Of a stretch of DNA of 64,000 nt, positions 900-14,448 are shown piece by piece (position 1 is the first letter of the stretch; each line of letters begins with the position of its first letter). A model generated the notes under the pieces. It was given only the letters and a program-made list of their open reading frames with translations, was not told the origin of the DNA and did no database searches. The DNA lies in contig JBEKMT010000001.1 of assembly GCA_050008355.1 (NCBI GenBank), positions 72 to 64,071 on the forward strand, read 5' to 3'. A program made the translations under genes and the position numbers. This DNA is from Verrucomicrobiota bacterium (GTDB lineage: Bacteria > Verrucomicrobiota > Verrucomicrobiia > Limisphaerales > UBA11358).

Positions 900-1619
900 T
901 CAAGGCATAGGGCTGTTGTGCAACACCCGCTGGCTCCAGTTACAAATGAGATAGTGATTGGGAGCGGAAGCAGTTGAGTTAATCGCGAGCTGCACCCACA
1001 AATCATACGAGTTGGGATTGTTCGTTCCCGGATAGACATAGCGAAAGGGATTGCCACCGATACCCGCCGGATTGTAATTCAAGTCCGGGCCGCCCACGGA
1101 CGTCACCAAATATGTGAAATTAATGCCGCTGCCATTCGTCGCCGTGGCCGTTTGGGTCGGCTTCAGACCGGGCAAAAAATCCTTGGCAAACGCCGTGTCT
1201 TCGCCACTGCCCTGAGTGCAATTCACAACGCCACCGATGTTAAATTGACTTTTATAATCAATGGCCTTAACCGAGGTAACGGAATCCAAAGTCTGATAAG
1301 TTCCGGCGGCACTATTAAGCGTGACACCGGATAATTCGTAGTACAACTGGTTGAGCATGGAATTGTCAGGATTGGACGGCGGATACACCCCGTGCGCGGC
1401 CTTGTAACTTTCCAGTGCCGTCTCGATTTGTTGGAGTTCAGCCTGAGCGGTGTTCTCTTTCTTGACGCGGGATACGTTGGTTGCCACCGGGAGGATCAGC
1501 GCTGCGAGCACGGCGATGATGGAAATCACGACGAGCAACTCCACCAGGGTGAAAGCTTCGCGCCGACGCTCATTCCGGTTCTGCCAATTCATATTCAAGG
1601 GTGTCATTTTTCGAGCCAT
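900..1619 (-). CDS. prepilin-type N-terminal cleavage/methylation domain protein (pseudopilin)
   Basis: The 239-aa ORF has an ATG start. Its N-terminus ...NRNERRREA|FTLVELLVVISIIAVLAALILP is a pilin-like methylation motif with Glu+5, but with Ala rather than Gly at -1. Confidence 0.85.
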   Translation of the reverse strand: MARKMTPLNMNWQNRNERRREAFTLVELLVVISIIAVLAALILPVATNVSRVKKENTAQAELQQIETALESYKAAHGVYPPSNPDNSMLNQLYYELSGVTLNSAAGTYQTLDSVTSVKAIDYKSQFNIGGVVNCTQGSGEDTAFAKDFLPGLKPTQTATATNGSGINFTYLVTSVGGPDLNYNPAGIGGNPFRYVYPGTNNPNSYDLWVQLAINSTASAPNHYLICNWSQRVLHNSPMP

Positions 1620-1632
1620 TATTCTCGAGCCA

Positions 1633-1908
1633 TTATTTCTCGCGCAGTTCCTGCTCCATCCGCTCGCTCAACCATTGCTTGACCATGCTTTGGTAATTCA
1701 AATACCGCGACCGGGCCAACCGCTTGATCCGAGCCAGCATCCGGGGGTCGAACCGCAAGGTCACGGTGACCGACTCGGAGGACTCCGCGTTCCCGGCGGT
1801 TGCCGCCTCCATCAACCGGAGGTCAGGCCGGTTCTCGCCCCAAAAATCCGCCTCCGCCTCCTCACTGTCGAAGAGCGGCACTTCCTCCCAATTTGCAAAC
1901 GTCCGCAT
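1633..1908 (-). CDS. brnA: BrnA-type antitoxin (CopG/RHH-like, COG3514 family)
   Basis: The 91-aa protein has the C-terminal segment VTLRFDPRMLARIKRLARSRYLNYQSMVKQWLSERM, typical of BrnA-family antitoxins. It lies 20 nt downstream of a DUF497-like ORF. Confidence 0.7.
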   Translation of the reverse strand: MRTFANWEEVPLFDSEEAEADFWGENRPDLRLMEAATAGNAESSESVTVTLRFDPRMLARIKRLARSRYLNYQSMVKQWLSERMEQELREK

Positions 1909-1928
1909 GACTCGTACTTTTACTAAGA

Positions 1929-2210
1929 TTAGGACAAATTCTGGTCCATTTTGCGCTGGTAAAAGAATCGTTCCTCAGGTTCAAAAGGTCGAGCCTGCAG
2001 CACGCGCACCTGGCGTCCATTGGTCCGGTAGACGCTGAATATGCCGATGCCACCCGCGGACATGCCGAGATTGAAAAATCGCGTCTGCACCCCGAATCGC
2101 GGGGAGTCCGGCAGCAGCCGAACGGCAAACGCATCTTCAAACGATTCCTCGATTTCCCGATGCGTCAAAGAGCCCATGTCGAATGGCGCATTGTTCCAAT
2201 CAAACTCCAT
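1929..2210 (-). CDS. brnT: BrnT-type toxin (DUF497 family ribonuclease toxin), divergent
   Basis: The 93-aa protein starts MEFDWN and contains ...GRQVRVLQARPFEPEERFFY, matching the DUF497 pattern (FEWD ... RIISARxAxxxExxxY). It sits upstream of brnA, as in BrnTA modules. Confidence 0.6.
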   Translation of the reverse strand: MEFDWNNAPFDMGSLTHREIEESFEDAFAVRLLPDSPRFGVQTRFFNLGMSAGGIGIFSVYRTNGRQVRVLQARPFEPEERFFYQRKMDQNLS

Positions 2211-2341
2211 AATGGCTCAATTGTAAACAATTCGCACATGCAATGTAACTACAATGTATTTACCAAACAGCAGCATACTTGTCAATAGTTCTTATCAATA
2301 GCTCTTCTGATTTCAGCTGAAACTGCCCGAGCAGACCCGAT

Positions 2342-3652
2342 TTATTCGCCTTTGCCGCCGCCAGAGTCCCCGGACATATTGCTAATCATCTGGATGAGAG
2401 GCAAAAACATCGCAATGACGATGCTACCGACGATTACGGCAAGAAAAATGATCATAATTGGCTCCAACAGGGAGGTCATGGCGGAAACCGCGTTATCGAC
2501 CTGTTCGTCATAGTCGTCGGCGATACGCATGAGCATTTCCGGCAAGGCGCCGGTTTGTTCGCCGACGTCCACCATGCTGACGACCATGGGTGGAAACACG
2601 CCGGAACCTTCCATGGGAGCGGTGATGGTCTCGCCTTCCTTGACGCTTTCATGAATCTTATTGACGGCGCCGGCGATAATGACATTGCCGGCCGTTTCGC
2701 GAACGATGGTCAGGGCCTGCAAAATGGGCACACCGCTGCTGACGAGCGTACCCAAGGTGCGGGTGAAACGGGAGATGGCCACCTTGCTGATGACGGGACC
2801 GAGGGCGGGCATGTGGAGTTTGAACTTATCCCAGAGATGACGTCCGAAATTGGTCTTGATGAACAACAGAAACGCGATCACGCACAGCGCCAGGACACCC
2901 GCCGTAGCCAGGATGTTGTTCTTAATGATATCGCTGACACCCATGACGAACAGGGTAAAACCAGGCAGCTTGAACCCCATGCCGGCAAATACGTCCTTGA
3001 ACTTGGGCACGACAAAGCACATGAGCAAAATCATGATGCCGATGGCGACGATCAACACGGCGATGGGATAAAAGAGTGCGGCCTTGACCTTGCCTTTGAT
3101 CTTTTGCGCCTTTTCGGAGAATTCCGCGAGCCGCTTGAGCACGACTTCGAGCACACCGCCGAGTTCGCCGGCCTTGACCATGTTGACAAAGAGGCGGTTG
3201 AAAACTTTAGGATGTTGCGCCAGGGCTTCCGAGAAGGTACTGCCACCTTCAATCGAAACGGCCAACTGGCCAAGAATATCCTTCAGCGTGGCATTGCGTT
3301 CCTGCTTCTCCAACACACGCAGCCCGCGCAACAGCGGCAGGCCGGCATCCACCAGCGTTGCCAGCTGGCGGGTGAAAGTCGTCAACACTTTTGGTTTCAC
3401 CTTCCCGCTGAGGAAGGGAATCTTGATGTTGATGTTCATCGCGGCACCCTTCTTGCCGGCTTTGGGTTTGGCGGCCTTGGCTTTTCCCTTCTTGGCGGGA
3501 GACTTATCCTCCTTGTCCGCCTCGGTGATCTTGGTCGGGAACAGGTTCATCTCCTTGACGCGCCCGATGGCCTCGTTCTGGCTGCCGACCTCGATGCTGC
3601 CCTTGGTTTCGTTCCCGCGGGAATCCAAAGCTACGTAATTATATCTGGGCAT
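2342..3652 (-). CDS. pilC: type IV pilus / T2SS platform protein (PilC/GspF family)
   Basis: The 436-aa protein has two T2SSF-like repeats (LATLVDAGLPLLRGLRVL... and LGTLVSSGVPILQALTIV...), three TM segments and the N-terminal Y-x-Y-x-A-x-D-x-x-G motif. Confidence 0.9.
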   Translation of the reverse strand: MPRYNYVALDSRGNETKGSIEVGSQNEAIGRVKEMNLFPTKITEADKEDKSPAKKGKAKAAKPKAGKKGAAMNINIKIPFLSGKVKPKVLTTFTRQLATLVDAGLPLLRGLRVLEKQERNATLKDILGQLAVSIEGGSTFSEALAQHPKVFNRLFVNMVKAGELGGVLEVVLKRLAEFSEKAQKIKGKVKAALFYPIAVLIVAIGIMILLMCFVVPKFKDVFAGMGFKLPGFTLFVMGVSDIIKNNILATAGVLALCVIAFLLFIKTNFGRHLWDKFKLHMPALGPVISKVAISRFTRTLGTLVSSGVPILQALTIVRETAGNVIIAGAVNKIHESVKEGETITAPMEGSGVFPPMVVSMVDVGEQTGALPEMLMRIADDYDEQVDNAVSAMTSLLEPIMIIFLAVIVGSIVIAMFLPLIQMISNMSGDSGGGKGE

Positions 3653-3664
3653 AACAAATACGGG

Positions 3665-5368
3665 TTAAGTGTATTTAACTACTTCTTCAATGGTTGTATC
3701 ACCGTCGAATATACTCCGCAAGCCGTCTTCGCGCAACGTGACCATGCCCAGTTCCACGGCTTTCTGGCGCACGACCACGGTGGGGGCGCGTTCATTGATC
3801 AAAGTACGGATGGCATCGCTGACGACCAGCAGCTCGTAAATGCCCTTGCGCCCCTTGTAACCGGTGTCGTTGCAAACGGAACAACCGCGTCCGTAATGAA
3901 AAACCTTATCGCCCAGGTCATGCGGCGAGAGGTTGAGCATGGCGAGCTGGTCCTCGGTCGGTTCAAAGGGTGTGCGGCAGTTTTTACAAGTGGTCCGCAC
4001 CAGGCGCTGCCCGAGCACGGCCATCAGGGTTGAAGAAATGAGGAAGGGTTCGACGCCCATGTCCACCAGACGGGTTACGGCACCCGGCGAATCGTTGGTG
4101 TGAAGGGTGCTCAAGACCAAGTGGCCGGTCAGCGACGCCTGGATGGAAATCTGGGCCGTTTCAAGGTCGCGCATTTCACCGACCATGATGATATCGGGAT
4201 CCTGACGCAAAAATGATTTCAACGCCTTGGCAAACGTCATCCCCGCCGCCTCGTTGATGGCCACCTGCATGATACCTTCGATATCGAATTCGACGGGATC
4301 CTCCGCGGTGAGCAATTTGGAATCGATTGTGTTAACCCGGCGCAGGCAGGAATACAGGGTCGTGGTTTTGCCCGAACCTGTCGGGCCGGTGACCACGAAG
4401 ATCCCATTGGGGCGCTGGATGACTTCGCTCACGAATTCGTGAACATATTTCGGAAAACCAAGCGCCTCGAGCTCAAGGTTCACCGAGCCGCGATCCAACA
4501 CGCGCAGCACGACCGATTCGCCGAACGCGGTGGGGAGGGTGCTGACGCGCAAATCGACCTGGCGGTTGTTGATGTGGTGGGTGATGCGCCCGTCCTGCGG
4601 CAGTCTTTTTTCCGAGATGTTCAACCCCGCCATGACCTTGATACGCGAAATCACCGGCAGGGAGAGATATTTTGGCGGGGGCGCCATTTCATAGAGGGCG
4701 CCGTCGACGCGATACCGGATGCGAAACTCGGTTTCGAAGGGTTCGAAGTGAATGTCGGAGGCGCGGTCGATCACGGCCTGTTGCAAGACGAGGTTGACGA
4801 ACTTTACGATGGGGACCTCATTGGCCAGCGCTTCGGCGGCCCGGGCGTCATCGGCGGCCTCGTCCACCTCGCGGGCGATATTTTTGTCCGCACCGATCTC
4901 CTTGAGGATTTCGGAGAAACTTTCGCTTTCCTGCTGACCGTAAAAGCGTTCAATGGCCTTCTGAATGTCGGCCGGGTCGGCCACGACGACCTGCACATCG
5001 CGCTTGATGGCAAATTGGATTTCATCCGGGCGGGACGGATCGAGAGGTTCGGCCAGGGCAATCTGCACCGAGCCGTTTTTCGTGCCGACCGGCAAACAGT
5101 TATACATCTGGGCGACTTTGACGGGAACCAGATTGAGTACTTCCTGCGGAATCTCGCGGTCGCGCAAAGACACCACCTCGGTCCCCAGCGCGTGGGCCTC
5201 GGTTTGCAAGATATCCTCCAGCTTCATGATGCCGAAGTCCTGCAAAATCTGGATCACCGGCGTGGCATTGCGCTTGAACTCGGCGACGACGCCTTCAAAT
5301 TGCAAATCATCAATCATCCCCTGCTCTTGGATCAGGTTCAGCAACGGACTGGAAACTTCTTCGGGCAT
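3665..5368 (-). CDS. pilB: type IV pilus assembly ATPase (PilB/GspE family)
   Basis: The 567-aa protein has an N-terminal T2SSE_N-like domain, Walker [11 protein letters not shown], Walker B/Asp box IMVGEMRD, His box [14 protein letters not shown] and a tetracysteine CKNC...CSVC motif. Confidence 0.9.
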
Positions 5369-5374
5369 GAAAAA

Positions 5375-6481
5375 TTATTTCTTTTGACGGCCCTGCTCCA
5401 CCGCGGCCGCGAGGTCGAGTTCCTGGAGTTTGGACATGATGGTGGTGGGATCCTGTGACTTGTTAATGACTTCTTCGCGGGCAATCCAGCCTTTGATGTA
5501 TTGGTCGATCAACCACGAGTCCAGGGTCACCATGCCATATTTTGATCCGGTTTGGATGTCGGATTGGATACGGAAGGTTTTATTATCGCGGATGAGCGCG
5601 GCGATGGAGGGGGTATTGACCATGATTTCAAACGCGGCCACGCGGCCCGGCTTGTCAATGCGCGGAATGAGCAACTGCGAAATCACCGCCTGCAAGACAG
5701 TGGAGAGCTGGATGCGAACCATTTCCTGCTGGTTCGTGGGGAAGGCATTGGTCAGACGGTCAATGGTCTTGGCCGCACCGGTGGTGTGCAGGGTGCCGAA
5801 AACCAAGTGGCCCGTTTCCGCCGCGGTGATGGCGGCTTCAATGGTTTCCAAGTCACGCATTTCGCCGACGAGGATCATGTCCGGGTCCTGCCGCAAGGCG
5901 CGGCGCAAGGCTTCGGCGAAATTCGGCACGTCGACGTGGACTTCGCGCTGGGTGATGAGGGCCTTCTTGTGTTTGTGATAATACTCGATCGGGTCTTCAA
6001 TGGTGATGAGGTGAACTTCATCGCGCGTCTCATTGACGATGTTCAAGAGCGAGGCGAGAGTGGTTGACTTGCCGGAACCGGTCGGGCCGGTAACGAGAAT
6101 CAGACCGCGCGGCTTGAACAAAAGCTCCTTCACCGATTCCGGCAGGCCAATTTGCTCGAAGGTGAGCATCTTGCTGGGGATCTGGCGGAGCACCATGCCG
6201 AAATTTCCCTTTTCCTTGAACACGCTCACGCGAAAACGCGCGGCATCACCGAAAGCGAAGGCGAAGTCCGCACCGCCGCGCTCGCGCACCTGCTGGATGT
6301 GTTCCTCGGAGGTAATGCTGCGCATCAATTCCTCGGCGGATTCCGGGGTGAGGGAGGGCCCCTCAACACGGTGCAGAATACCGTGCACGCGAATCGTCGG
6401 CGCCGTGCCGACACGGACGTGCAAATCGGACGCACCTTCGGACACCACCAACTGCAATAGGTCGGACATCGAGTAGGACAT
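5375..6481 (-). CDS. pilT: type IV pilus retraction ATPase PilT
   Basis: The 368-aa protein contains GASDLHV, Walker [30 protein letters not shown] and AAFEIMV, which are PilT-type motifs. It has no N-terminal T2SSE_N domain. Confidence 0.92.
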
Positions 6482-6576
6482 AAAAAATCAAATAAACCGG
6501 CGGGCAGCCGTCGCCGGGAAGGCGATCACGGCCGCGGTGGTTGTGCGCATCGTCATACTATCTTTCACCGGGTGGC

Positions 6577-8283
6577 TCATGCTTCATCGCCGACCGTCGC
6601 GCGGATGACCTCTTCCGGGGTCGTCAGGCCGGCGAGCACTTTGCGGATGCCGTCCTCGCGCAAGGTACGCATGCCCATTTCGCGGGCGCGCTGGCGCAAC
6701 ACACTGGTGGGCACGCGATCGTAAATCAGTTTGCGCCCCTCATCATCCACGACGAAAATTTCAAAGATGCCGAAACGCCCGCGGTTGCCGGAATTGTTGC
6801 AATTGTTGCAGCCGCGGCCTTTCTGGATGTTCGCGTTTTTCAAATCATCCGTCGTGATGCCGAGCACGCGCATTTCCGCCTCGGTTGGCTCGTAAGGGGC
6901 GGCGCATTTCTTGCAAATTTTGCGGACGAGGCGCTGGGCCATGAGGCAGCGGGTGGAGGAGGCAATCAAAAACGGTTTCACGCCAATATCCACCAAACGG
7001 GTGACCGCGCCGGGGGCGTCGTTGGTATGAAGCGTGGAAAATACGAGGTGACCGGTGAGGGAGGCATTAATGGCGATGGACGCGGTTTCCAGGTCACGAA
7101 TTTCCCCGATCATCACGATGTTCGGCGCCTGGCGCAAGATGGCGCGCAAGGCGGAGGCGAACGAGAAACCCACCTGATCGTTGACCTGCACCTGGTTGAT
7201 GCCGGCCAGGACATACTCGACCGGGTCTTCAACGGTGATGATTTTGCGGTCCGGCCGGTTGATGAAATTCAAGCAGGAATAAAGCGTCGTCGTCTTGCCG
7301 GAACCGGTGGGTCCGGTCACGAGCAGAATTCCATCCGGCAAAGCGATGATGCGTTCGAAGGTCGCCTGGTCGTCGCTCAAAAATCCGAGTTCCGGCAGAC
7401 CAAGCCGCAGGCCTTCCTTGTCCAAAATACGCATCACGATGCTTTCGCCGTGGTTCGTGGGCAGACAGGACACGCGCAAGTCGATCATTTTGGTACCGAC
7501 TTTTGACTGGATGCGTCCGTCCTGCGGCACACGATGTTCGGAGATGATCATGCCGGCCTGAATTTTGAGCCGGGCGATGATGGCCGACTGCAACTGCTTG
7601 GGAGGGGATTTCATCTCCTGCAAGATGCCGTCAATCCGGTAGCGCAGGCGAAATCGTTTGCCGAGCGGTTCGAGGTGAATATCCGAGGCGCGGATTTTGA
7701 AGGCCTCCACGATGATCTGGTTGACCAACCGGATCAGGGGCGCGTCCGCGTCGACATCCGCACCGTCGTCGGCGTTCTTGATTTCGACGTTGTCCTGGGT
7801 GAGTTCCTGAATGACGTCCTTGAAGGCCCCGTCGGCCATCGCCTTTTTGTCGCCGCCGTAGTATTTGTTGAGCGCCTGTTCGATGTCCGGTTCGGACGCG
7901 ACGCGCAATTCGATTTCGGCGTGCAAAAGGTGGGTCAGCGAATCAATCGTGTTCAAGTCCGACGGATCGGAGATGGCAACGACCACTTTATCCTCGGTCC
8001 GGAAAACGGGAATGACGCGATATTTTTTGGCGACGTCCCGGGGAACGATGGAAATGACGTCGTCCTCAATCTTCATCCCACTGAGCGTCACGACTTCCGC
8101 GCCGAATTGGGCCGCCTTGGCCTGGGTCACGTCAGCAGGCCGGATCACCTTGTTGGCCACGAGCAGATCCACGACGCCCACGCCGGCGGCGGTGGCCTCC
8201 TCGCGGGCCTTGGCAACCACTTCAGAGTTGGTGAACCCGAGGTCAACCAGAAGGTCCAGTAAATAATCGTCTTTTTCTGCCAC
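6577..8283 (-). CDS. second PilB/GspE-family secretion/assembly ATPase
   Basis: The 568-aa protein has a T2SSE_N-like N-terminus, [32 protein letters not shown] and the tetracysteine CKKC...CNNC. It is clearly paralogous to 3665..5368. Confidence 0.9.
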   Translation of the reverse strand: MAEKDDYLLDLLVDLGFTNSEVVAKAREEATAAGVGVVDLLVANKVIRPADVTQAKAAQFGAEVVTLSGMKIEDDVISIVPRDVAKKYRVIPVFRTEDKVVVAISDPSDLNTIDSLTHLLHAEIELRVASEPDIEQALNKYYGGDKKAMADGAFKDVIQELTQDNVEIKNADDGADVDADAPLIRLVNQIIVEAFKIRASDIHLEPLGKRFRLRYRIDGILQEMKSPPKQLQSAIIARLKIQAGMIISEHRVPQDGRIQSKVGTKMIDLRVSCLPTNHGESIVMRILDKEGLRLGLPELGFLSDDQATFERIIALPDGILLVTGPTGSGKTTTLYSCLNFINRPDRKIITVEDPVEYVLAGINQVQVNDQVGFSFASALRAILRQAPNIVMIGEIRDLETASIAINASLTGHLVFSTLHTNDAPGAVTRLVDIGVKPFLIASSTRCLMAQRLVRKICKKCAAPYEPTEAEMRVLGITTDDLKNANIQKGRGCNNCNNSGNRGRFGIFEIFVVDDEGRKLIYDRVPTSVLRQRAREMGMRTLREDGIRKVLAGLTTPEEVIRATVGDEA

Positions 8284-8525: not shown

Positions 8526-11500
8526 TTAGCGCCGTTTTTTCAAGGAGAGCGCGGCTTCCTCGAGCCACTTGCCGTCCGGCTGGGCATAAGGGCGGAAGGT
8601 TTCGAGATGGCCTTCGCGATCGTTGTAATAGAGCGCACGGTGCAGGCCGAGGGCCGAGCCATTGGGCGCGTCAATCAAGCTGGCGGAGTCGGTGGCACTC
8701 ATCTGGAAGACGACGCGCATCTCAAACTCCGTGAGCATCTTCCGGCCGAGGAACCGGCTGACATTATTGTAAGTGTCGCAAGTGATAATGACATGCATGC
8801 CGCGCGCCGGGCCCTCGGTGATGAGTTTCAAGAGGATGGCGGCGGGGCTGGCGGAGCCGCCGGTGTCGCTGCTCGAAAAGCTGAACTCGTCTTCCTGCCG
8901 GAGCTTCTTGAAATTCTGCAGGCTGTGAACCAGGAGAAAAATCTCCATGCCAGAGGATTCGTTCTCGGTGCGCTGGTTTAACTCTTCCGCCAGGCCGTTC
9001 ATGACGTCCGCCAGACCGGCATTGCCGGCCTGAACCGTTTCATGCGGCACGGAACTGATGACGCGGCGCAAAAATTCGCGAGGGGGAGATCCGGCGGGAG
9101 CGTTGTCGAGCACCACAAACCGGACGCCGGTTTTGGGAAACTGGGAAGCGAGGGAAATCATGGCGACGGACAAAATTGTCAAAGTGCGTTCGTCACTCTG
9201 TCCGACCACAAGCAGATTGCCGCCACTCTGCCGACGGAAGACGGCTTCGGTGGGGCCTTTGATGGAATTGGGTGCACCCAGCCAGGCGCCAACCCGGGCG
9301 GGTGGGGAGACGCTGGTTTCCCTGAGACCGGCGAGCAAAGCATAATTTTCCGACACATCCGCGGGCGCGTTGCCTTCGAATACAATCGGCCCGGGATAAT
9401 CCGGGCCAGCCTGATCGGCGTGCTCCCGGATTTTTGCAAGATAAACGTCCCGCTCCCGGTCGGAGAGCCATACTGCTTGAAAAGGACTGTTGCCCTCGAT
9501 GGCACCGGCGGCGTCATTGTAAATTCCCTCGCCGGGGCGCGAGAGGAGGCGGGGCGCAGGGTTATCCTGATCCATGATGAGGAGGGCGTCGGCTTCGTTG
9601 CATTGAAGCGCGATGCGAATGACCATTTGACCGATGGTGGCCCGGGCGAGAGTGTAAGCGCCGCCCAGTGTCTGGGAGCCGAGCAAGACATGGATGCCGA
9701 AGGCGCGGCCCTGGCGGACAATGCGATCCAGGAGCACGGCGGCTCCCTGTGAAATGTGATCTTCTTCGGTGAAAAACTCCTGGAACTCATCAATCATTAA
9801 CAAGGTGCGGGGAACGGATCCGCCAGCGCGGCGGTAGCCGGCCAAGTCCTGAGCGCCCACTTTGCGGAACAAATCACCGCGGCGACGCAGTTCTTCGTCG
9901 ACCCGCTGGAGAACGCTCAAACCGAATTCGCGATCACTCTCAATGGCAACGACCCGGGCATGCGGGAGGCGGCGGCTGGCGTAACATTTGAACTCGACGC
10001 CCTTTTTGAAATCCACCAGATAAAATTCAACCTGATCCGGGCTGCACCGGAGCGCCAGGTTGGTGATCATGACATGGAACAAGGTGGATTTTCCCGAACC
10101 GGTTTTACCGGCGATCAAAACGTGCTGGCGGGTACCGCTTCCGATCTCAAGATATTGCGATTTGGTGGCACCGGAACGGCCGATGGGAACGCGCAACAAT
10201 TCGGTGGTTTCATCCTTCCAGATTTCCGATTCCGGCGGCGCAATCTGTGAGAACGGCACCTCGACCCGATTGGCGTTCTTGCTGCTCTGGCCGATGCGTT
10301 GAAGGAACCCGGTGGCGAATTCCGGGGGGGGTGGCGGATCCAGGAGCAAATGGATGCCGGGAGCCCGCCAGCCGGACAACTCATAACCGCGGCCGTTATG
10401 AACCAGGCAAGTGCTGTTTTGACGCAGCTCATCGGGAACAAAATCGGTCGGTGTGGCATTGCGCTGATCCCAATGCACGAGCAAGTGGACACCGCAACGG
10501 GCACCACTCGCGGCGATGTTGCGCAACCGGCGCGCGGCGTTGTCGTTGAAGTTCACCGGGAAAGAGGCGATGACGAGGAAATGATATTTTTCCGCGACAC
10601 TGCCAGCCTCGGCGTTGTAATCGGCGATGGTGGCATATTCGTTGCGGAGATACATCTGGATGATCTTCTCCATGTGCTCATTCAGCTCGGCCAGCTTTTC
10701 CTCGAACTGCGCGGTTTGCGTCCAAATGCGGCTGTTGATGCAACCCTCCTCGTAATCGGCGAGATGCATGAGGGTGGCGAAATTCTGCCCCAGCCCGACC
10801 GGGTCAAAGATGGTGAAACTCAAACGGCCGGGCGGCGAAGAGGACAGCAGGCGGAATATAATATTGTTGATCACACCGAAAGCTTCGTCGCCACTGGTCT
10901 TACCGCTTTCGAACAGAATGGATCCTTGCAACGGGCAAACCAACGAGAGCGGAAGGGAAAGGGTTGCCGGACCGGGCCAAGCCAGGCGTTTATCCTTCGG
11001 CATCACCTCCACAAATTTTTCCACGGCCACCTCGAGGCACCCAAATTTCACGGTGTTCTGAAAATTCGCCGGCGGGGTCCACTTTTCCCAGTCGGCGGCG
11101 CTCCAGGCTGGAAAGAGCTTCTTCGCCGTGACAATGGCGGCCTCGAGCTGATCGCACAACGATTGGATCCCGCGGTTCCAATCCGCCACCAGTTCCCGCC
11201 AGCGGAGTTGATTTTTCCCGCCGAGCTCCGCTATGCGCGCGTCGTGGGCCTGAGTGACCTGCTGGACGCGGGCGAAGTCCGCCCTTTTCAATTCCGCGAG
11301 GACGGCGGCCTGATGCCGCTCAAGGCGTTCCTGTTCGCGGTGGTGCCACCGCTCCAATTTACCTTCCAGGCGGGCAACTTTTTCGGCAATGGTCGCCGGC
11401 CACATTTCACGTTGATAATTAATATCCCGAACGGCCTGCCGCCATTCCTGATTGACCGAATGTTTGTTGTTTTCGAATTGCGCCTTGATCCGTTCCTGTT

Positions 11501-12404
11501 CCTGCTGGTAATGCACCTCGGATTTTTCGCGACCGGCAGCGATCAAGCGTCCGGCGAGGGCAATATGGCCGGCGATGGAGCGAGCCAGCGGAGCCGCGCT
11601 GCGACCACCGAGCCAGTGGACCACGGTGAGCAACACCAACAGGATTACGGCGGTAGCGGCTTCAAAATGGGAAATGTCGTTCCGGCCAAAATGAACCAGG
11701 ACCGGGTCCGCCGCCGCCACGCCCAGCAACAATATCCCGATCAGCCAGACGGGGAGGAATTTGAAAATGACGGGGAACAAAAACTTTTTGAAGCTGGTCA
11801 GCTCCTCGTTGATTTTTGACTGGAGGCCGCGGAATTCATCATAGAGACCATTGTGATTTGCGGAGAGGTCCGGCTCAGGCCACGCACGTCCGGGAGCGAG
11901 GAGCCGCCGGAACCGGCCATAGCCGCGGAATGCACGGCGCGCTGCTTCCTTCAATTGCGCCAAACTGACTTCCGCCGCATCCAGATTTTGCTGGAAATTT
12001 TCGCGATCGCCGGCGGCCTGGGCGAGGCCTTTTTCCTGCTGCTGCTCCAATTCCACCGCCACCTGCCGGGTGCGCTCGCTCCACCGGCGGTCGTGATCGC
12101 TGATTTCGGTGAGTCCTCGTTCGCTCAGACGGGCATGAGCGCGGCTGATCCGGTCCCGGCGTTTTGCGAAACGGGTCTGCAGTTGTTCTTTTTCAGTTTC
12201 CAGTATGGCTTCCGCGTTCGTCAGTTGCACGGAGGCCAGGGATTCCTGCTGTTCGTTCCGGGCAGCAAATTCATTGTCTGCGGCAGCGGTCTGAACGCGA
12301 AACTCGCCATTCAATTTCTCTTCGCGCGCGACGAAATCCCGGACGGTATTCTTCAACGTCTCCAGCAATGCAAGCATTTCCCTGACCCCTGGCTGGCTAT
12401 TCAC
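8526..12404 (-). CDS. FtsK/SpoIIIE-family membrane ATPase, EssC/EccC-like (type VII-like secretion ATPase)
   Basis: The protein is 1292 aa. Residues 1-205 are heptad-rich and charged (coiled-coil-like). Two hydrophobic segments follow (FLFPVIFKFLPVWLIGILLLGVAAA, AATAVILLVLLTVVHWLGG), then a second coiled-coil stretch. Three FtsK-like modules come last. Module 2 has canonical Walker A AGKTGSGKST (nt ~10083-10109), Walker B LLMIDEF (nt ~9783-9803) and RQGRAFGIHVLLGSQ. Modules 1 and 3 keep the fold signatures (ARCGVHLLV, ARGMHVIIT) but have degenerate Walker motifs. The track start at 12404 is GTG; an in-frame ATG lies at 12377. Confidence 0.85.
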   Translation of the reverse strand: MNSQPGVREMLALLETLKNTVRDFVAREEKLNGEFRVQTAAADNEFAARNEQQESLASVQLTNAEAILETEKEQLQTRFAKRRDRISRAHARLSERGLTEISDHDRRWSERTRQVAVELEQQQEKGLAQAAGDRENFQQNLDAAEVSLAQLKEAARRAFRGYGRFRRLLAPGRAWPEPDLSANHNGLYDEFRGLQSKINEELTSFKKFLFPVIFKFLPVWLIGILLLGVAAADPVLVHFGRNDISHFEAATAVILLVLLTVVHWLGGRSAAPLARSIAGHIALAGRLIAAGREKSEVHYQQEQERIKAQFENNKHSVNQEWRQAVRDINYQREMWPATIAEKVARLEGKLERWHHREQERLERHQAAVLAELKRADFARVQQVTQAHDARIAELGGKNQLRWRELVADWNRGIQSLCDQLEAAIVTAKKLFPAWSAADWEKWTPPANFQNTVKFGCLEVAVEKFVEVMPKDKRLAWPGPATLSLPLSLVCPLQGSILFESGKTSGDEAFGVINNIIFRLLSSSPPGRLSFTIFDPVGLGQNFATLMHLADYEEGCINSRIWTQTAQFEEKLAELNEHMEKIIQMYLRNEYATIADYNAEAGSVAEKYHFLVIASFPVNFNDNAARRLRNIAASGARCGVHLLVHWDQRNATPTDFVPDELRQNSTCLVHNGRGYELSGWRAPGIHLLLDPPPPPEFATGFLQRIGQSSKNANRVEVPFSQIAPPESEIWKDETTELLRVPIGRSGATKSQYLEIGSGTRQHVLIAGKTGSGKSTLFHVMITNLALRCSPDQVEFYLVDFKKGVEFKCYASRRLPHARVVAIESDREFGLSVLQRVDEELRRRGDLFRKVGAQDLAGYRRAGGSVPRTLLMIDEFQEFFTEEDHISQGAAVLLDRIVRQGRAFGIHVLLGSQTLGGAYTLARATIGQMVIRIALQCNEADALLIMDQDNPAPRLLSRPGEGIYNDAAGAIEGNSPFQAVWLSDRERDVYLAKIREHADQAGPDYPGPIVFEGNAPADVSENYALLAGLRETSVSPPARVGAWLGAPNSIKGPTEAVFRRQSGGNLLVVGQSDERTLTILSVAMISLASQFPKTGVRFVVLDNAPAGSPPREFLRRVISSVPHETVQAGNAGLADVMNGLAEELNQRTENESSGMEIFLLVHSLQNFKKLRQEDEFSFSSSDTGGSASPAAILLKLITEGPARGMHVIITCDTYNNVSRFLGRKMLTEFEMRVVFQMSATDSASLIDAPNGSALGLHRALYYNDREGHLETFRPYAQPDGKWLEEAALSLKKRR

Positions 12405-12609
12405 AATCGCTCCTCACCTTTCTCAACAATGCCTCAAGCTTATCCACAATGATGAGTGTACGATCCACGCTGGCAGTGAGCTCCGCCATGTGCCGGCTTT
12501 CGAATTCCCGGCTCTTGGCGTCCTGCCAATGGTTCTTGGTATCCGACCATTTCAGCAAAAGTTCCCGGGTCAACCCGGTCAGGCGGGCTTTGTTGCCATT
12601 CAAATTCAT
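12397..12609 (-). CDS. small helical WXG100-like protein (70 aa, W-Q-D variant)
   Basis: This is the C-terminal 70 codons of track ORF 12397..12981: MNLNGNKARLTGLTRELLLKWSDTKNHWQDAKSREFESRHMAELTASVDRTLIIVDKLEALLRKVRSDCE. Its ATG (12609-12607) overlaps the TGA of the upstream gene (ATGA). Its stop overlaps the ATPase GTG start by 8 nt. The central HWQDxxxxEF resembles the WxGxxxxxF motif of Esx proteins. Confidence 0.55.
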   Translation of the reverse strand: MNLNGNKARLTGLTRELLLKWSDTKNHWQDAKSREFESRHMAELTASVDRTLIIVDKLEALLRKVRSDCE

Positions 12610-13136
12610 CCTGGATTCTCCGTTTCGTCCGTGTGGTTTGCGGGGCCGGGCGAGGCGTGGGCAGGCGTCACATTCCGGTAGGCGGCCAGCGCGTTGAGAA
12701 TCTGGTCGAGATAGGCGACGGCGCGGCCCATGTCCATGACCAGGAACCCCTGCAATTGTTCCACCTGCTTGGTCAACGGAGCGGAGCGGTCCTCCAGATC
12801 GCGGTTCCATTTTTTGATGGCCGCGAGTTTGCCTTCCGCCTCCTGAACCGCGCGTTGCGCGCGTTGCACCGCCATGTAGTGCAGTGACGAGGCTTCCTGC
12901 AGAGAGGATAGTTTGGCGGCAAACAGTTCCTGCCTGGCTTCCTCCAGTTTCCGCTGCCGGCGGCGCAGTTCCAGGTCCCAAAGCCGACGCTGGTCATTTT
13001 GGAGCCAGAGTCTGGTCTGAACCGCCTCATGGCTGATCTCCTCCAGCAGAGGACGGGCCTGGCTCAGATACACAATCAGGCTGGCCCTGAAGGATTCAAT
13101 GGCCTCCACCGAAGTGATCTGGGCTTGTTGCGGCAT
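12606..13136 (-). CDS. hypothetical all-helical protein of the WXG-like cassette (176 aa)
   Basis: The ORF has an ATG start 4 nt after the stop of the 90-aa gene. Its composition is helical and charged (LELRRRQRKLEEARQELFAAKLSSLQEA...). It has Trp-centred motifs (LWLQND, KKWNRDLED) and an acidic/Pro-rich tail. I recognise no family. Confidence 0.6.
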   Translation of the reverse strand: MPQQAQITSVEAIESFRASLIVYLSQARPLLEEISHEAVQTRLWLQNDQRRLWDLELRRRQRKLEEARQELFAAKLSSLQEASSLHYMAVQRAQRAVQEAEGKLAAIKKWNRDLEDRSAPLTKQVEQLQGFLVMDMGRAVAYLDQILNALAAYRNVTPAHASPGPANHTDETENPG

Positions 13137-13140
13137 CGGG

Positions 13141-13413
13141 TCAACGCTGGTTCAGATACTCCTCGATGCGCTGCGCCTTTCGCAAAAGAAACGGGGTGTG
13201 TTCCTTGGAAAGTTCGGTGAATTTTTTCAAGGCTTTGAGCGCCTGCCTGAATTCCTCGGAAAACTTTTCGTGTTCCTGGTCCTGCCAGGTGTCGCCCAGG
13301 GCCATAAAGCGGGCATGCAAAAGAACCATCCGGTTCTCGATATCGGTGTTAAAACGTTGCAGTTCTTCAGCGAAGCGCCGCACCTTTTCCGGATCCATGA
13401 TTGCCTGGGCCAT
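13141..13413 (-). CDS. WXG100-like small helical protein (90 aa, W-Q-D variant)
   Basis: The sequence is MAQAIMDPEKVRRFAEELQRFNTDIENRMVLLHARFMALGDTWQDQEHEKFSEEFRQALKALKKFTELSKEHTPFLLRKAQRIEEYLNQR. Length, predicted helix-turn-helix layout and the central TWQDQEHEKFSEEF mirror the W-x-G-x-x-x-x-x-F-x-x-x-F core of EsxA-type proteins, with G replaced by D. Confidence 0.65.
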   Translation of the reverse strand: MAQAIMDPEKVRRFAEELQRFNTDIENRMVLLHARFMALGDTWQDQEHEKFSEEFRQALKALKKFTELSKEHTPFLLRKAQRIEEYLNQR

Positions 13414-13815
13414 AATACTTTTTTATCGGCAGGGTCTTGATCTCGACAGTAGACTGACCGTTTACCGGGTGGTTTTGGCGCTCACTGACCGCCACCGCCC
13501 AACCAAAACACTGCGATTTTGTTCCATTGTTCGATCAGTTGCTCGCCGCAAGATGCTTCATCCGGCCAACGTTCGCAAACAGTTCTATCGCAATTCCGCA
13601 TGCCGGTTCCAGCCAAATTGTTCCGGACCCAACCCGATGTTGCCGCGGAAACATTCGCGCGGAGCGAACTGTTGCAGGAGCATCTCGTTGGCCCGGCAGC
13701 CTCGCGTGGCCACATGAGTCATCACTGGAAAAATCCTCGATTTGAAAACCGGGGTGGCATCAGCTATTCTAGCTGAACAATTGGCCCATACCGCCAGCGC
13801 CTGAAAGATTTGTCC

Positions 13816-14448
13816 ATGAAGCAACTCAATAAGCCAGCCAGCCGAATTGCCATTGCCCTGCTCTGCCTCGGGTTCACCGGCTGCCAAACACACAAAACCA
13901 TCGCGCCCCTGGGCGGCGGTTATGAGGAAATCAACCATCCTGTGCACAGTTTGCTCCCCGACTCCACGCCTTCGCGCACGTCGCTTGAATACAAGGATCC
14001 CGACGGGAAGACCATCACGGTATGGCCATCCCTGTATTGCTTCAACGAAGTGGTGAAAGGCGACCTGGCGATTTTTGTTGCGGAAAAAGCTTACCTGAAT
14101 GACGGCGACCGGGGCGTTCATCCCCGGCTCTTCGCGGTGAGGTCACCAGCCATACCACTGGACATCACGGACGAAGTCTTGTGGCGGTGGTCGAAGGCGA
14201 ACGGGAAGGACCTGAATAAAACCTTTAACCGGTTCAACGTCGCGACACCGAAGGAACAAAACGGTGAGTTGGAGGTGCATCTGGAATTCTGGCAGGGAAG
14301 CTATATGACGGACGAGGACTGGCCTGACACGGGTGATATACAACTGGACTGGCAACAAGTCTCGGAAATCATGCAGGCGGTTGAAAAGAAGGGTGTATTG
14401 CAAAAAGATTTGCGGTGGAACACCTCGTATATCGGGGAAAAATTCTAA
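13816..14448 (+). CDS. hypothetical lipoprotein
   Basis: The ATG at 13816 is in frame with the track's TTG at 13810. The signal peptide carries a lipobox: MKQLNKPASRIAIALLCLGFTG|C. I recognise no family. Confidence 0.65.
   Translation: MKQLNKPASRIAIALLCLGFTGCQTHKTIAPLGGGYEEINHPVHSLLPDSTPSRTSLEYKDPDGKTITVWPSLYCFNEVVKGDLAIFVAEKAYLNDGDRGVHPRLFAVRSPAIPLDITDEVLWRWSKANGKDLNKTFNRFNVATPKEQNGELEVHLEFWQGSYMTDEDWPDTGDIQLDWQQVSEIMQAVEKKGVLQKDLRWNTSYIGEKF

What the first reader, a model, noticed from the sequence alone, without database searches (positions are those of the whole stretch)
12397..13413. Candidate substrates carry W-Q-D instead of W-x-G, and the 70-aa gene is hidden inside a longer spurious ORF
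Seen: the 90-aa protein has ...LGDTWQDQEHEKFSEEFRQAL... in the middle of the chain. The 70-aa protein has ...TKNHWQDAKSREFESRHMAEL... Both match W-x-[G->D]-x(5)-F-x(3)-[FM]. This is very close to the EsxA-type core W-x-G-x-x-x-x-x-F-x-x-x-F, but with Asp where the turn Gly normally sits. The 176-aa middle protein has related Trp motifs (LWLQND at aa 43-48, KKWNRDLED at aa 108-116). At roughly twice the hairpin length, it may be a tandem or fused version, or a chaperone/adaptor. The 70-aa ORF appears in the track only as the tail of a 194-aa ORF whose first 124 codons overlap the 176-aa gene out of frame, so automated annotation could easily miss or mis-start it.
Basis: partly seen in the sequence, partly recalled or inferred. 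Interest (0 to 1): 0.65.

Follow-up and report, generated by a model that had tools for sequence, protein, structure and literature searches.

The report
Verrucomicrobial WXG100-type secretion gene cassette
Three small helical-protein genes sit directly upstream of a membrane ATPase and form a conserved four-gene "type VII-like" cassette in peat-soil Verrucomicrobia; the Trp-x-Asp turn motif and the 70-codon gene are real and conserved, but the motif variant is already known from a solved Helicobacter protein, and gene callers already find the small gene.

Summary
The sequence observation holds. On the minus strand, four genes are packed together: a 90-aa, a 176-aa and a 70-aa gene, then a 1292-aa ATPase of the type VII secretion (EccC/EssC) kind.

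- **90-aa protein:** it passes Pfam's WXG100 threshold. Its closest solved relative is H. pylori HP0062, whose hairpin bend reads W-R-D. The G-to-D variant is therefore already known.
- **70-aa gene:** it is real.
  - It is under purifying selection (dN/dS about 0.13-0.22).
  - It is 70 aa in 68 of 69 related loci.
  - Its start overlaps the 176-aa stop as ATGA or GTGA in 62 of 69 loci.
  - Public gene calls already give it as 70 aa, so it is not hidden.
  - AlphaFold2 predicts a confident hairpin (pLDDT 92) with W-Q-D at the turn.
  - W-x-D-x5-F-x3-[Y/F] and a C-terminal Cys-Glu are near-invariant.
  - Sequence homology to WXG100 could not be shown.
- **176-aa protein:** it is one long hairpin, not a tandem. 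Its Trp residues lie mid-helix.
- **Cassette:** the four-gene order is kept in 68 of 70 Verrucomicrobiota (subdivision 3) loci, and no other neighbour is conserved.

Export itself is inferred, not shown.

The parts
13141..13413 (-). 90-aa WXG100-family gene (HP0062/EsxA-like helical hairpin), first gene of the cassette
   Evidence: Pfam PF06013 scores 32.7 bits against a cut-off of 27.3. PDB matches: HP0062 at E 3e-5 and S. aureus EsxA at E 6e-3. 3802 homologues, many named YukE/WXG100. Median 86% identity across 68 loci.
13279..13287 (-). Codons for W43-Q44-D45 of the 90-aa protein, which take the place of W-x-G
   Evidence: Aligned on the WRD of HP0062 and the WEG of EsxA. W and D are invariant in 66/66 distinct orthologues; x is Q, S, A, G or N.
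12606..13136 (-). 176-aa gene: long two-helix hairpin with a disordered, variable C-terminal tail. No Pfam family.
   Evidence: AlphaFold2 pLDDT 76, helices H5-78 and H84-156, tail 157-176 below 50. 590 homologues, none with a consistent functional name. Invariant W44, W53, W110, Y153. No significant PDB fold or sequence match.
12397..12609 (-). 70-aa gene: short helical hairpin with W-x-D at the turn and a conserved C-terminal tail
   Evidence: AlphaFold2 pLDDT 92.3, helices H3-28 and H31-69. 70 aa in 68/69 loci. dN/dS 0.13-0.22. 909 clusters at 50% identity in the representative search. Top Foldseek hits are WXG100 hairpins, but all have E above 1.
12520..12528 (-). Codons for W28-Q29-D30 of the 70-aa protein, at the predicted hairpin turn
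   Evidence: W and D are invariant in 69/69; x is R (53), K, H, Q or L. DSSP of the model shows non-helical residues 29-30 between the two helices.
12400..12408 (-). Codons for the C-terminal D68-C69-E70 of the 70-aa protein (candidate docking or export signal)
   Evidence: C69 in 69/69, E70 in 68/69, D68 in 60/69. The tail is x-C-E in 114 and x-C-x in 123 of the 149 cluster representatives examined. It is kept in L035 and L069, where the gene does not overlap the ATPase gene.
12606..12609 (-). ATGA overlap: the stop of the 176-aa gene lies inside the start of the 70-aa gene (translational coupling). GGAG lies 8 nt upstream.
   Evidence: Read from the sequence. An ATGA or GTGA overlap is found in 62/69 loci, and a Shine-Dalgarno-like element in 58/69.
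12610..12981 (-). Spurious upstream extension of the 70-aa reading frame (first 124 codons of the 194-aa ORF), out of frame over the 176-aa gene
   Evidence: The length of the open frame upstream of the conserved start varies from 71 to 388 codons among loci.
8526..12404 (-). 1292-aa membrane FtsK/SpoIIIE-family ATPase of the EccC/EssC type. Layout: N-terminal coiled coil, 2 TM helices (about 207-235 and 249-268), coiled coil, a degenerate P-loop domain, an active domain (Walker A at 766, GKTGSGKS; Walker B at 868, LLMIDE), and a C-terminal degenerate domain.
   Evidence: Pfam PF01580 at 9.5e-32. NCBIfam partial hits to EccCa, EccCb and EssC. PDB matches: T. curvata EccC 1.6e-30, EccC5 6e-25, YukB 5e-17, against FtsK at only 1e-9. 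Motifs and TM segments.
12397..12404 (-). 8-nt overlap (GTGAATAG) between the end of the 70-aa gene and the GTG start of the ATPase gene
   Evidence: Nearly all loci overlap by 8 nt, or by 11 nt in a minority.

Best explanation
The region is the front of a self-contained four-gene operon (90 aa, 176 aa, 70 aa, 1292-aa ATPase). It is a minimal type VII-like (WXG100 plus FtsK/SpoIIIE) system of Verrucomicrobiota subdivision 3.

Shown:
- The 90-aa protein is a WXG100-family hairpin of the HP0062/EsxA kind, in which Asp replaces the turn Gly.
- The 70-aa gene is a genuine, strongly constrained gene. It encodes a shorter hairpin with the same W-x-D-x5-F-x3-aromatic core at its turn and an almost invariant (R/K)-x-(D/E)-C-E carboxy-terminus.
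- The 176-aa protein is a single long hairpin, about twice the WXG100 length.
- The ATPase has EccC/EssC-like topology: a cytoplasmic N-domain, 2 TM helices and three P-loop domains, of which one is canonical.
- The four genes are inherited as a unit, with overlapping start and stop codons.

Inferred:
- The Asp acts as the N-cap of helix 2 (D30 immediately precedes H31-69), doing the job of the turn Gly.
- The small proteins assemble into helical bundles that are clients or co-factors of the ATPase.
- The 70-aa protein presents its conserved C-terminal tail to the ATPase, as EsxB does with EccC. The ATPase then moves the complex across the inner membrane.
- How, or whether, the outer membrane of these diderm bacteria is crossed is unknown.
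For: - Gene packing and overlaps.
- WXG100 membership of the 90-aa protein.
- HP0062 has WRD at its hairpin bend and is linked to an FtsK/SpoIIIE gene. [quoted passage not shown]
- 70-aa gene: length conservation, purifying selection, invariant W28, D30, F36, C69, confident hairpin with the turn at residues 29-30, and WXG100 hairpins as the best fold matches (TM 0.80-0.84, rmsd 1.4-1.8).
- 176-aa protein: long hairpin.
- ATPase closer to EccC/EssC than to FtsK. Topology.
- Synteny in 68/70 loci, with no other conserved neighbour within 6 kb.
- Weak transcript evidence across the 90/176 junction in a close relative.
Against: - No experiment or dataset here shows export.
- The 70-aa family has no Pfam hit. 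Profile-profile comparison with the 90-aa family is insignificant (probability 0.9%). Foldseek E-values are above 1, because two-helix hairpins are a trivial fold.
- None of the other T7SS membrane or ubiquitin-like components is conserved nearby.
- Only one of the ATPase's three P-loop domains has Walker motifs.
- The hosts are diderm, and no outer-membrane route is evident.
- No canonical YxxxD/E signal was seen by inspection.
- Mirror-tree partial correlations do not single out an interacting pair.
- One locus (L030) keeps the ATPase without the small genes.
Confidence: 0.6

Rival explanations
1. The three small helical proteins are not exported. They are cytoplasmic structural or regulatory subunits (stalk, adaptor or chaperone) of the membrane ATPase, whose true cargo is encoded elsewhere or is not a protein of this operon.
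For: - Tight translational coupling with the ATPase.
- The 90-aa protein is far more conserved (median 86%) than the ATPase (60%), as expected for a core machine part rather than an effector.
- The weak fold neighbours of the 176-aa hairpin include stalk and chaperone-type hairpins such as YscO and HP0958.
- HP0062 has been discussed as a possible transport chaperone or adaptor.
- No toxin or effector domain is present in the cassette.
Against: - In characterised T7SS the WXG100 proteins are both needed for the machine and secreted (established knowledge; for the shared EsxA/EssC core).
- The fold matches for the 176-aa protein are non-significant (E at or above 0.8).
- Nothing here discriminates export from retention.
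Confidence: 0.27
2. The large ATPase is a DNA translocase (FtsK/SpoIIIE or conjugation/competence type). It would work with the neighbouring type IV pilus genes, and the small proteins would be accessory DNA-handling factors.
For: - FtsK_SpoIIIE Pfam domain.
- In the window, PilB, PilT, PilB, PilC and a pilin gene follow on the same strand.
- PADLOC gives generic hits to SspH and mad8 P-loop domains.
Against: - Matches to EccC/EssC are about 20 orders of magnitude better than to FtsK.
- No FtsK gamma domain or any other DNA-binding domain was detected.
- Pilus genes lie within 6 kb of the cassette in only 6 of 80 loci, in varying positions and orientations.
- The first gene is a bona fide WXG100 protein.
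Confidence: 0.06
3. The 70-aa ORF is a chance or shadow ORF, or the true product is the 194-aa ORF. The W-Q-D resemblance to the 90-aa protein would then be coincidental.
For: - The ORF lister shows only the 194-aa ORF.
- BLASTP between the 90-aa and 70-aa proteins is weak (E 0.04). hhalign is insignificant.
Against: - dN/dS is 0.13-0.22 and third-codon-position diversity is the highest.
- The ORF is 70 aa in 68/69 loci, with ATG or GTG at the same place and a Shine-Dalgarno-like element upstream.
- The upstream open frame varies from 71 to 388 codons.
- The family has 909 clusters at 50% identity.
- The fold is predicted with high confidence.
Confidence: 0.01
4. The 176-aa protein is a tandem duplication or fusion of two WXG100 hairpins.
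For: - It is about twice the hairpin length.
- It contains invariant Trp residues.
- 2 of 36 members give a weak Pfam LXG hit (E 4e-4).
Against: - AlphaFold2 predicts two helices of about 73 residues with a single turn at 79-83. It does not predict four helices.
- W44, W53 and W110 are mid-helix and are not in a W-x-G/D context.
- hhalign against both small families is insignificant.
- Generic coiled-coil Pfam hits of the same strength are common in the family.
Confidence: 0.03

Closest known systems
Helicobacter pylori HP0062 (PDB 3FX7, 2GTS) and its HP0062/HP0066 'WXG100 secretion system' locus
   Same: - Best solved-structure match of the 90-aa protein (E 3e-5, aligned end to end).
- A small protein with no signal peptide, from a Gram-negative host.
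- A helical hairpin that forms an antiparallel dimer.
- W-R-D in place of W-x-G at the bend.
- Gene linked to an FtsK/SpoIIIE ATPase gene.
   Different: - The H. pylori island carries other companions: a DnaK homologue and an HNH/EndoVII nuclease.
- No 70-aa or 176-aa partner is described there. I could not fetch that locus to check.
- The function of HP0062 is itself unknown.
EsxA/EsxB (WXG100, PF06013) with EssC/EccC: type VII secretion systems T7SSa and T7SSb-j of Actinomycetota and Bacillota
   Same: - A WXG100 hairpin protein together with a membrane FtsK/SpoIIIE ATPase that has 2 TM helices and several P-loop domains. These are the two components shared by all T7SS subtypes.
- The W-x-[G/D]-x5-F-x3-F spacing is identical to that of S. 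aureus EsxA.
- Small helical partner proteins are encoded next to it.
- The conserved C-terminal tail on one small protein recalls the EsxB signal that docks on EccC (established knowledge, not tested here).
   Different: - Asp instead of Gly at the turn.
- Diderm Verrucomicrobiota host.
- No EccB/D/E, MycP, EssA/B, EsaA or YukD-like gene is conserved nearby.
- The ATPase N-terminus is a long coiled coil instead of an FHA or DUF domain, and only one P-loop domain has Walker motifs.
- The NCBIfam EccC/EssC models are matched only over part of their length and far below cut-off.
- The published subtype scheme covers Gram-positives only.
LXG domain with Lap1/Lap2 targeting factors, and PE/PPE pairs (long helical T7SS substrates with small hairpin partners)
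   Same: A long helical hairpin protein (176 aa) is encoded between two small hairpin proteins directly upstream of the ATPase. This is the same logic as a long helical substrate domain escorted by small WXG100-like partners (paper listed, PMC9600955).
   Different: - No toxin or other C-terminal domain on the 176-aa protein.
- The Pfam LXG model is matched by only 2/36 family members at E 4e-4, no better than generic coiled-coil noise.
- No L-x-G or YxxxD/E motif was seen.
- Complex formation was not tested.

Membership tests
WXG100 (Pfam PF06013), 90-aa protein | Scores at or above the family's curated HMM threshold | tested here: met
   PF06013 scores 32.7 bits against a cut-off of 27.3, covering residues 6-85. 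NCBIfam TIGR03930 is below cut-off (26 against 44.85).
WXG100 (Pfam PF06013), 90-aa protein | About 100 residues, helix-turn-helix hairpin | tested here: met
   90 aa. Aligns end to end with the crystallised hairpins HP0062 (E 3e-5) and S. aureus EsxA (E 6e-3). The 90-aa protein was not itself modelled.
WXG100 (Pfam PF06013), 90-aa protein | Trp-x-Gly at the hairpin turn | tested here: not met
   W43-Q-D45 aligns on the W-E-G of EsxA. Asp is invariant in 66/66 orthologues. The same deviation (WRD) exists in HP0062, which is accepted as ESAT-6-like.
WXG100 (Pfam PF06013), 90-aa protein | Gene linked to an FtsK/SpoIIIE-family ATPase gene | tested here: met
   Same operon in the window and in 68/70 loci.
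WXG100 (Pfam PF06013), 90-aa protein | Secreted without a signal peptide, dependent on the ATPase | not testable with these tools
   No secretome or proteome data. There is only weak metatranscriptome coverage of a close relative.
WXG100 superfamily, 70-aa protein | Detectable sequence homology to WXG100 models or members | tested here: not met
   No Pfam hit for the protein or for any of 32 family members. hhalign against the 90-aa family gives probability 0.9%. The profile search of PDB sequences finds no WXG100 protein.
WXG100 superfamily, 70-aa protein | Two-helix hairpin fold resembling Esx proteins | tested here: inconclusive
   AlphaFold2 gives a hairpin with pLDDT 92. The best Foldseek matches are EsxA/EsxB, HP0062 and CFP-10/ESAT-6 (TM up to 0.84), but all E-values are above 1.
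WXG100 superfamily, 70-aa protein | W-x-G at the turn; about 100 residues | tested here: not met
   W28-x-D30 lies at the predicted turn and is invariant. The length is fixed at 70 aa.
Type VII secretion system (as a system) | Membrane-anchored EccC/EssC-type ATPase with tandem FtsK/SpoIIIE P-loop domains | tested here: inconclusive
   The best PDB matches are EccC and YukB. The protein has 2 TM helices, one canonical P-loop domain and two degenerate ones. The equivalog models TIGR03924, TIGR03925 and TIGR03928 are matched only in part and far below cut-off.
Type VII secretion system (as a system) | Subtype-specific accessory membrane components (EccB/D/E/MycP, or EssA/EssB/EsaA and the YukD-like EsaB) | tested here: not met
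   Clustering of all ORFs of at least 90 aa within 6 kb on each side in 80 loci finds no conserved family besides the ATPase, the 176-aa and the 90-aa genes. Such components could still be encoded elsewhere in the genome.
Type VII secretion system (as a system) | Demonstrated export of WXG100 or partner proteins | not testable with these tools
   No experimental data are available. The full-text search found no paper on T7SS in Verrucomicrobiota.
LXG domain (PF04740), 176-aa protein | Match to the LXG model at the curated threshold; N-terminal targeting domain followed by a toxin domain | tested here: not met
   The window protein has no hit. Only 2/36 family members reach E 4e-4. The protein ends in a short disordered tail with no further domain.

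The most novel reading that the evidence does not exclude
The cassette is a working, streamlined type VII-like protein export system of diderm Verrucomicrobiota. This would be a further T7SS subtype outside the Gram-positive T7SSa-j scheme, built from only an EccC-like ATPase and three helical-hairpin proteins. Two of these are undescribed families: a fixed-length 70-aa W-x-D hairpin whose invariant ...D-C-E carboxy-terminus is the ATPase-docking signal, and a 176-aa long hairpin.
Probability: 0.4. Interest if true: 0.7.

Novelty: new variant of a known kind. Interest (0 to 1): 0.45.

Why it matters
Type VII secretion is treated as a Gram-positive and mycobacterial trait. The current subtype scheme (T7SSa-j) lists only Bacillota and Actinomycetota.

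WXG100 plus FtsK/SpoIIIE gene pairs in Gram-negative bacteria have been noted computationally. They have not been dissected.

This locus gives a compact and very widespread example. It has four genes and no other conserved partner, and it is present in most of the sampled subdivision-3 Verrucomicrobiota from peat and soil. It would let one ask three questions:
- What is the minimal set of parts for WXG100-type transport?
- What does the turn residue do, since Asp can replace the 'defining' Gly?
- How does such a system deal with an outer membrane?

It also adds two unannotated but large protein families as candidate T7SS-type partners.

Gene callers already handle the 70-codon gene correctly.

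Tried and rejected
- Profile-profile comparison (hhalign) of the 70-aa, 90-aa and 176-aa families gave no significant relation. The 70/90 pair aligns only over W-x-D...F, with probability 0.9%.
- The profile search of PDB sequences with the 70-aa family returned only YWTD-repeat proteins (LRP6) through the W..TK..W.D stretch, which is spurious.
  - The same artefact put a 1971-aa tandem-repeat protein at the top of the representative search.
  - That search lists only the best 150 hits, so it could not show whether WXG100 proteins appear in the weak tail.
- A 1149-aa '70-aa::ATPase fusion' (P0403) looked like a natural gene fusion. It lacks the DCE tail and ends in out-of-frame sequence, so it is a frameshifted contig.
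- Foldseek of the 176-aa model returned only generic long coiled coils, with E at or above 0.8. The PDB sequence profile search found nothing.
- Pfam scans of 176-aa family members showed that the LXG hit in 2/36 members is no stronger than many generic coiled-coil hits.
- PADLOC gave no defence-system assignment for the small proteins.
- Rfam found no RNA family in the window. The promoter and terminator scan was at chance level.
- Mirror-tree partial correlations to pick out the interacting pair were all weak (0.04-0.19).
- The link to the adjacent type IV pilus genes was rejected. It is not conserved (6/80 loci).
- Literature:
  - Searches for T7SS in Verrucomicrobiota found nothing relevant.
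  - Searches for the H. pylori HP0061 and HP0063-HP0066 genes found nothing relevant.
  - Sutcliffe 2011 (pmid 20852931), on the distribution of WXG100 systems, is not held.

Full report
**1. What is in the sequence**

Four ORFs lie head to tail on the minus strand:
- a 90-aa gene at 13413..13141;
- a 176-aa gene at 13136..12606, 4 nt downstream of the 90-aa gene;
- a 70-aa gene at 12609..12397;
- a 1292-aa gene at 12404..8526.

The 70-aa ATG overlaps the 176-aa TGA as ATGA, with GGAG 8 nt upstream. The GTG of the 1292-aa gene overlaps the end of the 70-aa gene by 8 nt (GTGAATAG).

The mechanical ORF list shows the 70-aa gene only as the tail of a 194-aa TTG ORF (12981..12397).

There is one slip. 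In the window's 70-aa protein the residue four positions after F36 is His40, and the Met is at +5. The motif F-x3-[FM] is therefore off by one. Family-wide, position 40 is Tyr or Phe in 68/69 sequences.

**2. The 90-aa protein is an ordinary WXG100 family member with a known motif variant**

It passes Pfam PF06013 (32.7 bits against a cut-off of 27.3). It has 3802 database homologues, many already named 'YukE' or 'WXG100 family type VII secretion target'.

Its best solved relative is H. pylori HP0062 (3FX7/2GTS, E 3e-5), where W-Q-D aligns on W-R-D. In the alignment with S. aureus EsxA, W43-Q-D45 lies on W-E-G, and F51 and F55 lie on the corresponding Phe residues.

[quoted passage not shown] The G-to-D replacement is therefore real and invariant here: W and D are present in 66/66 distinct orthologues. 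It is not new.

**3. The 70-aa gene is real, and annotators already find it**

- All 32 homologues from the 5.8-billion-protein search are exactly 70 aa, and the window's own product is in the collection as a 70-aa protein.
- A profile search of 1.84 billion cluster representatives finds 909 clusters at E up to 1e-3. Of the 149 best examined, 103 are exactly 70 aa.
- In 80 genomic loci recovered with the ATPase, the ORF is 70 aa in 68 of the 69 loci where it was found.
  - It starts with ATG or GTG in 66 of them.
  - It overlaps the 176-aa stop as ATGA or GTGA in 62.
  - It has a Shine-Dalgarno-like element upstream in 58.
- The open frame upstream of that start varies from 71 to 388 codons, so the long ORF is a shadow.
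- dN/dS is 0.13 (close pairs) to 0.22 (against the window), and third-position diversity is the highest.
- AlphaFold2 on the family alignment gives pLDDT 92.3 and a hairpin, H3-28 and H31-69. Q29 and D30 are the only non-helical internal residues.

Asp30 therefore sits at the N-cap position of helix 2. This is a plausible reason why Asp can replace the turn Gly (inference).

W21, W28, D30, F36 and C69 are invariant. The carboxy-terminus is (R/K)-x-(D/E)-C-E almost everywhere. This includes two loci where the gene does not overlap the ATPase gene (L035 and L069). The tail is therefore constrained at the protein level.

**4. Is the 70-aa protein a WXG100 protein?**

- By sequence this cannot be shown. 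There is no Pfam hit for any member. hhalign against the 90-aa family gives probability 0.9%, and BLASTP gives E 0.04.
- By fold, the top PDB neighbours are T. curvata EsxA/EsxB, B. anthracis EsxB, HP0062 and CFP-10/ESAT-6 (TM 0.65-0.84). Every E-value is above 1, as expected for such a simple fold.

I therefore describe it as WXG100-like in architecture, motif and context. I do not file it as a demonstrated member.

**5. The 176-aa protein**

It has 590 homologues and no Pfam family. AlphaFold2 (pLDDT 76) predicts one long hairpin, H5-78 and H84-156, followed by a disordered tail whose sequence varies between orthologues.

The invariant Trp residues (44, 53, 110) are mid-helix. W53 and W110 are roughly equidistant from the turn, so they probably face each other (inference).

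The protein is not a tandem of two WXG100 hairpins. No significant fold or sequence relative exists in the PDB. An LXG hit in 2 of 36 members is no better than generic coiled-coil noise.

**6. The ATPase**

PF01580 matches at 9.5e-32. The best solved relatives are T. curvata EccC (1.6e-30), EccC5 (6e-25) and B. subtilis YukB (5e-17), against FtsK at 1e-9.

The architecture runs as follows:
- an N-terminal coiled coil of about 200 aa;
- two TM helices;
- a second coiled coil;
- a degenerate FtsK-like domain (22.4 bits);
- a canonical domain (Walker A at 766, Walker B at 868);
- a C-terminal region that matches EccCb but lacks Walker motifs.

This is EccC/EssC-like in topology. It falls far below the equivalog cut-offs.

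**7. The unit and its distribution**

Of the 70 loci with enough upstream DNA, 68 carry 90-176-70-ATPase in this order. L030 lacks all three small genes and L056 lacks the 90-aa gene.

Clustering all flanking ORFs finds no other conserved neighbour. The type IV pilus genes that follow in the window (PilB, PilT, PilB, PilC and a pilin) lie within 6 kb of the cassette in only 6/80 loci.

Most loci are labelled as Verrucomicrobiota subdivision 3 (Limisphaerales, Pedosphaera) genomes assembled from metagenomes. Exceptions are listed under item 3 in section 11. The window sequence is found in peat, bog, wetland and soil metagenomes.

Median identity to the window is 86% for the 90-aa protein, 57% for the 176-aa protein, 54% for the 70-aa protein and 60% for the ATPase. 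The WXG100 protein is thus by far the most constrained part.

A wetland metatranscriptome holds two short contigs (90-95% identical) over the 90-aa gene and across the 90/176 junction. This is weak evidence for co-transcription in a relative. Nothing covers the 70-aa gene.

**8. Mechanism**

Shown: a vertically inherited, translationally coupled four-gene module that combines a WXG100 protein, two further hairpin proteins and an EccC/EssC-like membrane ATPase.

Inferred, by analogy with characterised T7SS:
- The hairpins form helical bundles.
- The 90-aa protein may be a homodimer, like HP0062 and EsxA.
- The 70-aa and 176-aa proteins, whose genes are coupled by the ATGA overlap, may pair with each other.
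- The invariant 70-aa tail is the best candidate for the element recognised by the ATPase.

Mirror-tree analysis could not identify the interacting pairs.

Whether the proteins are cargo, machine parts or both is open, as is passage of the outer membrane. The rival 'cytoplasmic subunits' reading gets substantial weight.

**9. Comparison with what is known, and novelty**

The T7SS subtype scheme (a-j) covers only Bacillota and Actinomycetota. It names EssC/EccC and EsxA as the two universal parts. The full-text search found no paper on T7SS in Verrucomicrobiota.

WXG100/FtsK pairs in Gram-negative bacteria are known from computational work. Sutcliffe 2011 is seen only as a reference, and I know its content only from memory.

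The finding's headline items are therefore already known (W-x-D) or not a problem (the 'hidden' gene). The conserved four-gene cassette with two undescribed partner families is a new variant of a known kind.

**10. Verdict**

- Interest is moderate (0.45).

**11. Noticed in passing**

1. A type IV pilus gene block with two PilB paralogues follows the ATPase on the same strand.
2. A promoter-like motif precedes the 90-aa gene in many loci but not in the window.
3. Several related loci come from metagenome-assembled genomes labelled as other phyla, probably through mis-binning or mislabelling.

Noticed in passing
window 900-8283, minus strand: A type IV pilus/T2SS-like gene block lies directly downstream of the ATPase on the same strand: PilB-like (8283..6577), PilT (6481..5375), a second PilB-like paralogue (5368..3665), PilC/GspF (3652..2342) and a prepilin-type N-methyl protein (1619..900). 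Pilus genes lie within 6 kb of the cassette in only 6 of 80 related loci, in varying positions and orientations.
   Followed up: partly
L001, L002, L004, L005, L007-L012 and other loci, about 25-65 nt upstream of the 90-aa ATG; window 13414-13480 for comparison: Many related loci share a promoter-like motif upstream of the 90-aa gene: TTGCG(G/A)A, then about 12-16 nt, then TTTGCGATA(G/T)TG. An AAAGG ribosome-binding-like element lies closer to the ATG. The window's own upstream region lacks this motif.
   Followed up: no
Loci L003, L014, L017, L024, L025, L029, L030, L040, L051, L053, L064: Contigs carrying clear orthologues of the Verrucomicrobial ATPase (50-71% identity) are labelled in their records as Bifidobacteriaceae, Candidatus Sulfopaludibacter, Sulfotelmatobacter, Acidiferrales, Acidoferrum or Limnocylindrales. 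All but L030 and L053 also show the small genes. This is probably mis-binning or mislabelling rather than cross-phylum distribution.
   Followed up: no
L030:5500-6000 and L056:4300-5300: L030 keeps the ATPase but has none of the three small genes upstream. An unrelated 92-aa coiled-coil ORF sits there instead. L056 keeps the 176-aa and 70-aa genes but lacks the 90-aa gene, and a prepilin-like gene lies further upstream.
   Followed up: partly
Protein P0403: A 1149-aa database protein fuses residues 1-66 of a 70-aa homologue to the ATPase. It lacks the DCE tail and ends in out-of-frame-looking sequence, so it is most likely a frameshifted assembly, not a natural fusion.
   Followed up: yes
Protein P0273 and PDB LRP6 chains: The 70-aa family profile gives spurious top hits to YWTD-type and other tandem repeats, through the W-x(2)-TK-x(2)-W-x-D stretch. 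This is a trap for automated family assignment.
   Followed up: yes
window 13810-14448, plus strand: A divergently transcribed 212-aa ORF has a lipoprotein-type signal (…LCLGFTGCQ) and no Pfam match. It lies just upstream of the cassette and is not conserved next to the cassette in other loci.
   Followed up: partly
window 60560 (-) and 28815 (+): Two further W-x-D-x5-F matches occur in the six-frame translation (GWGDVIGKYF and WRDRGVRSF). These are about what chance predicts (1.7 expected), and they show no similarity to the cassette proteins.
   Followed up: partly
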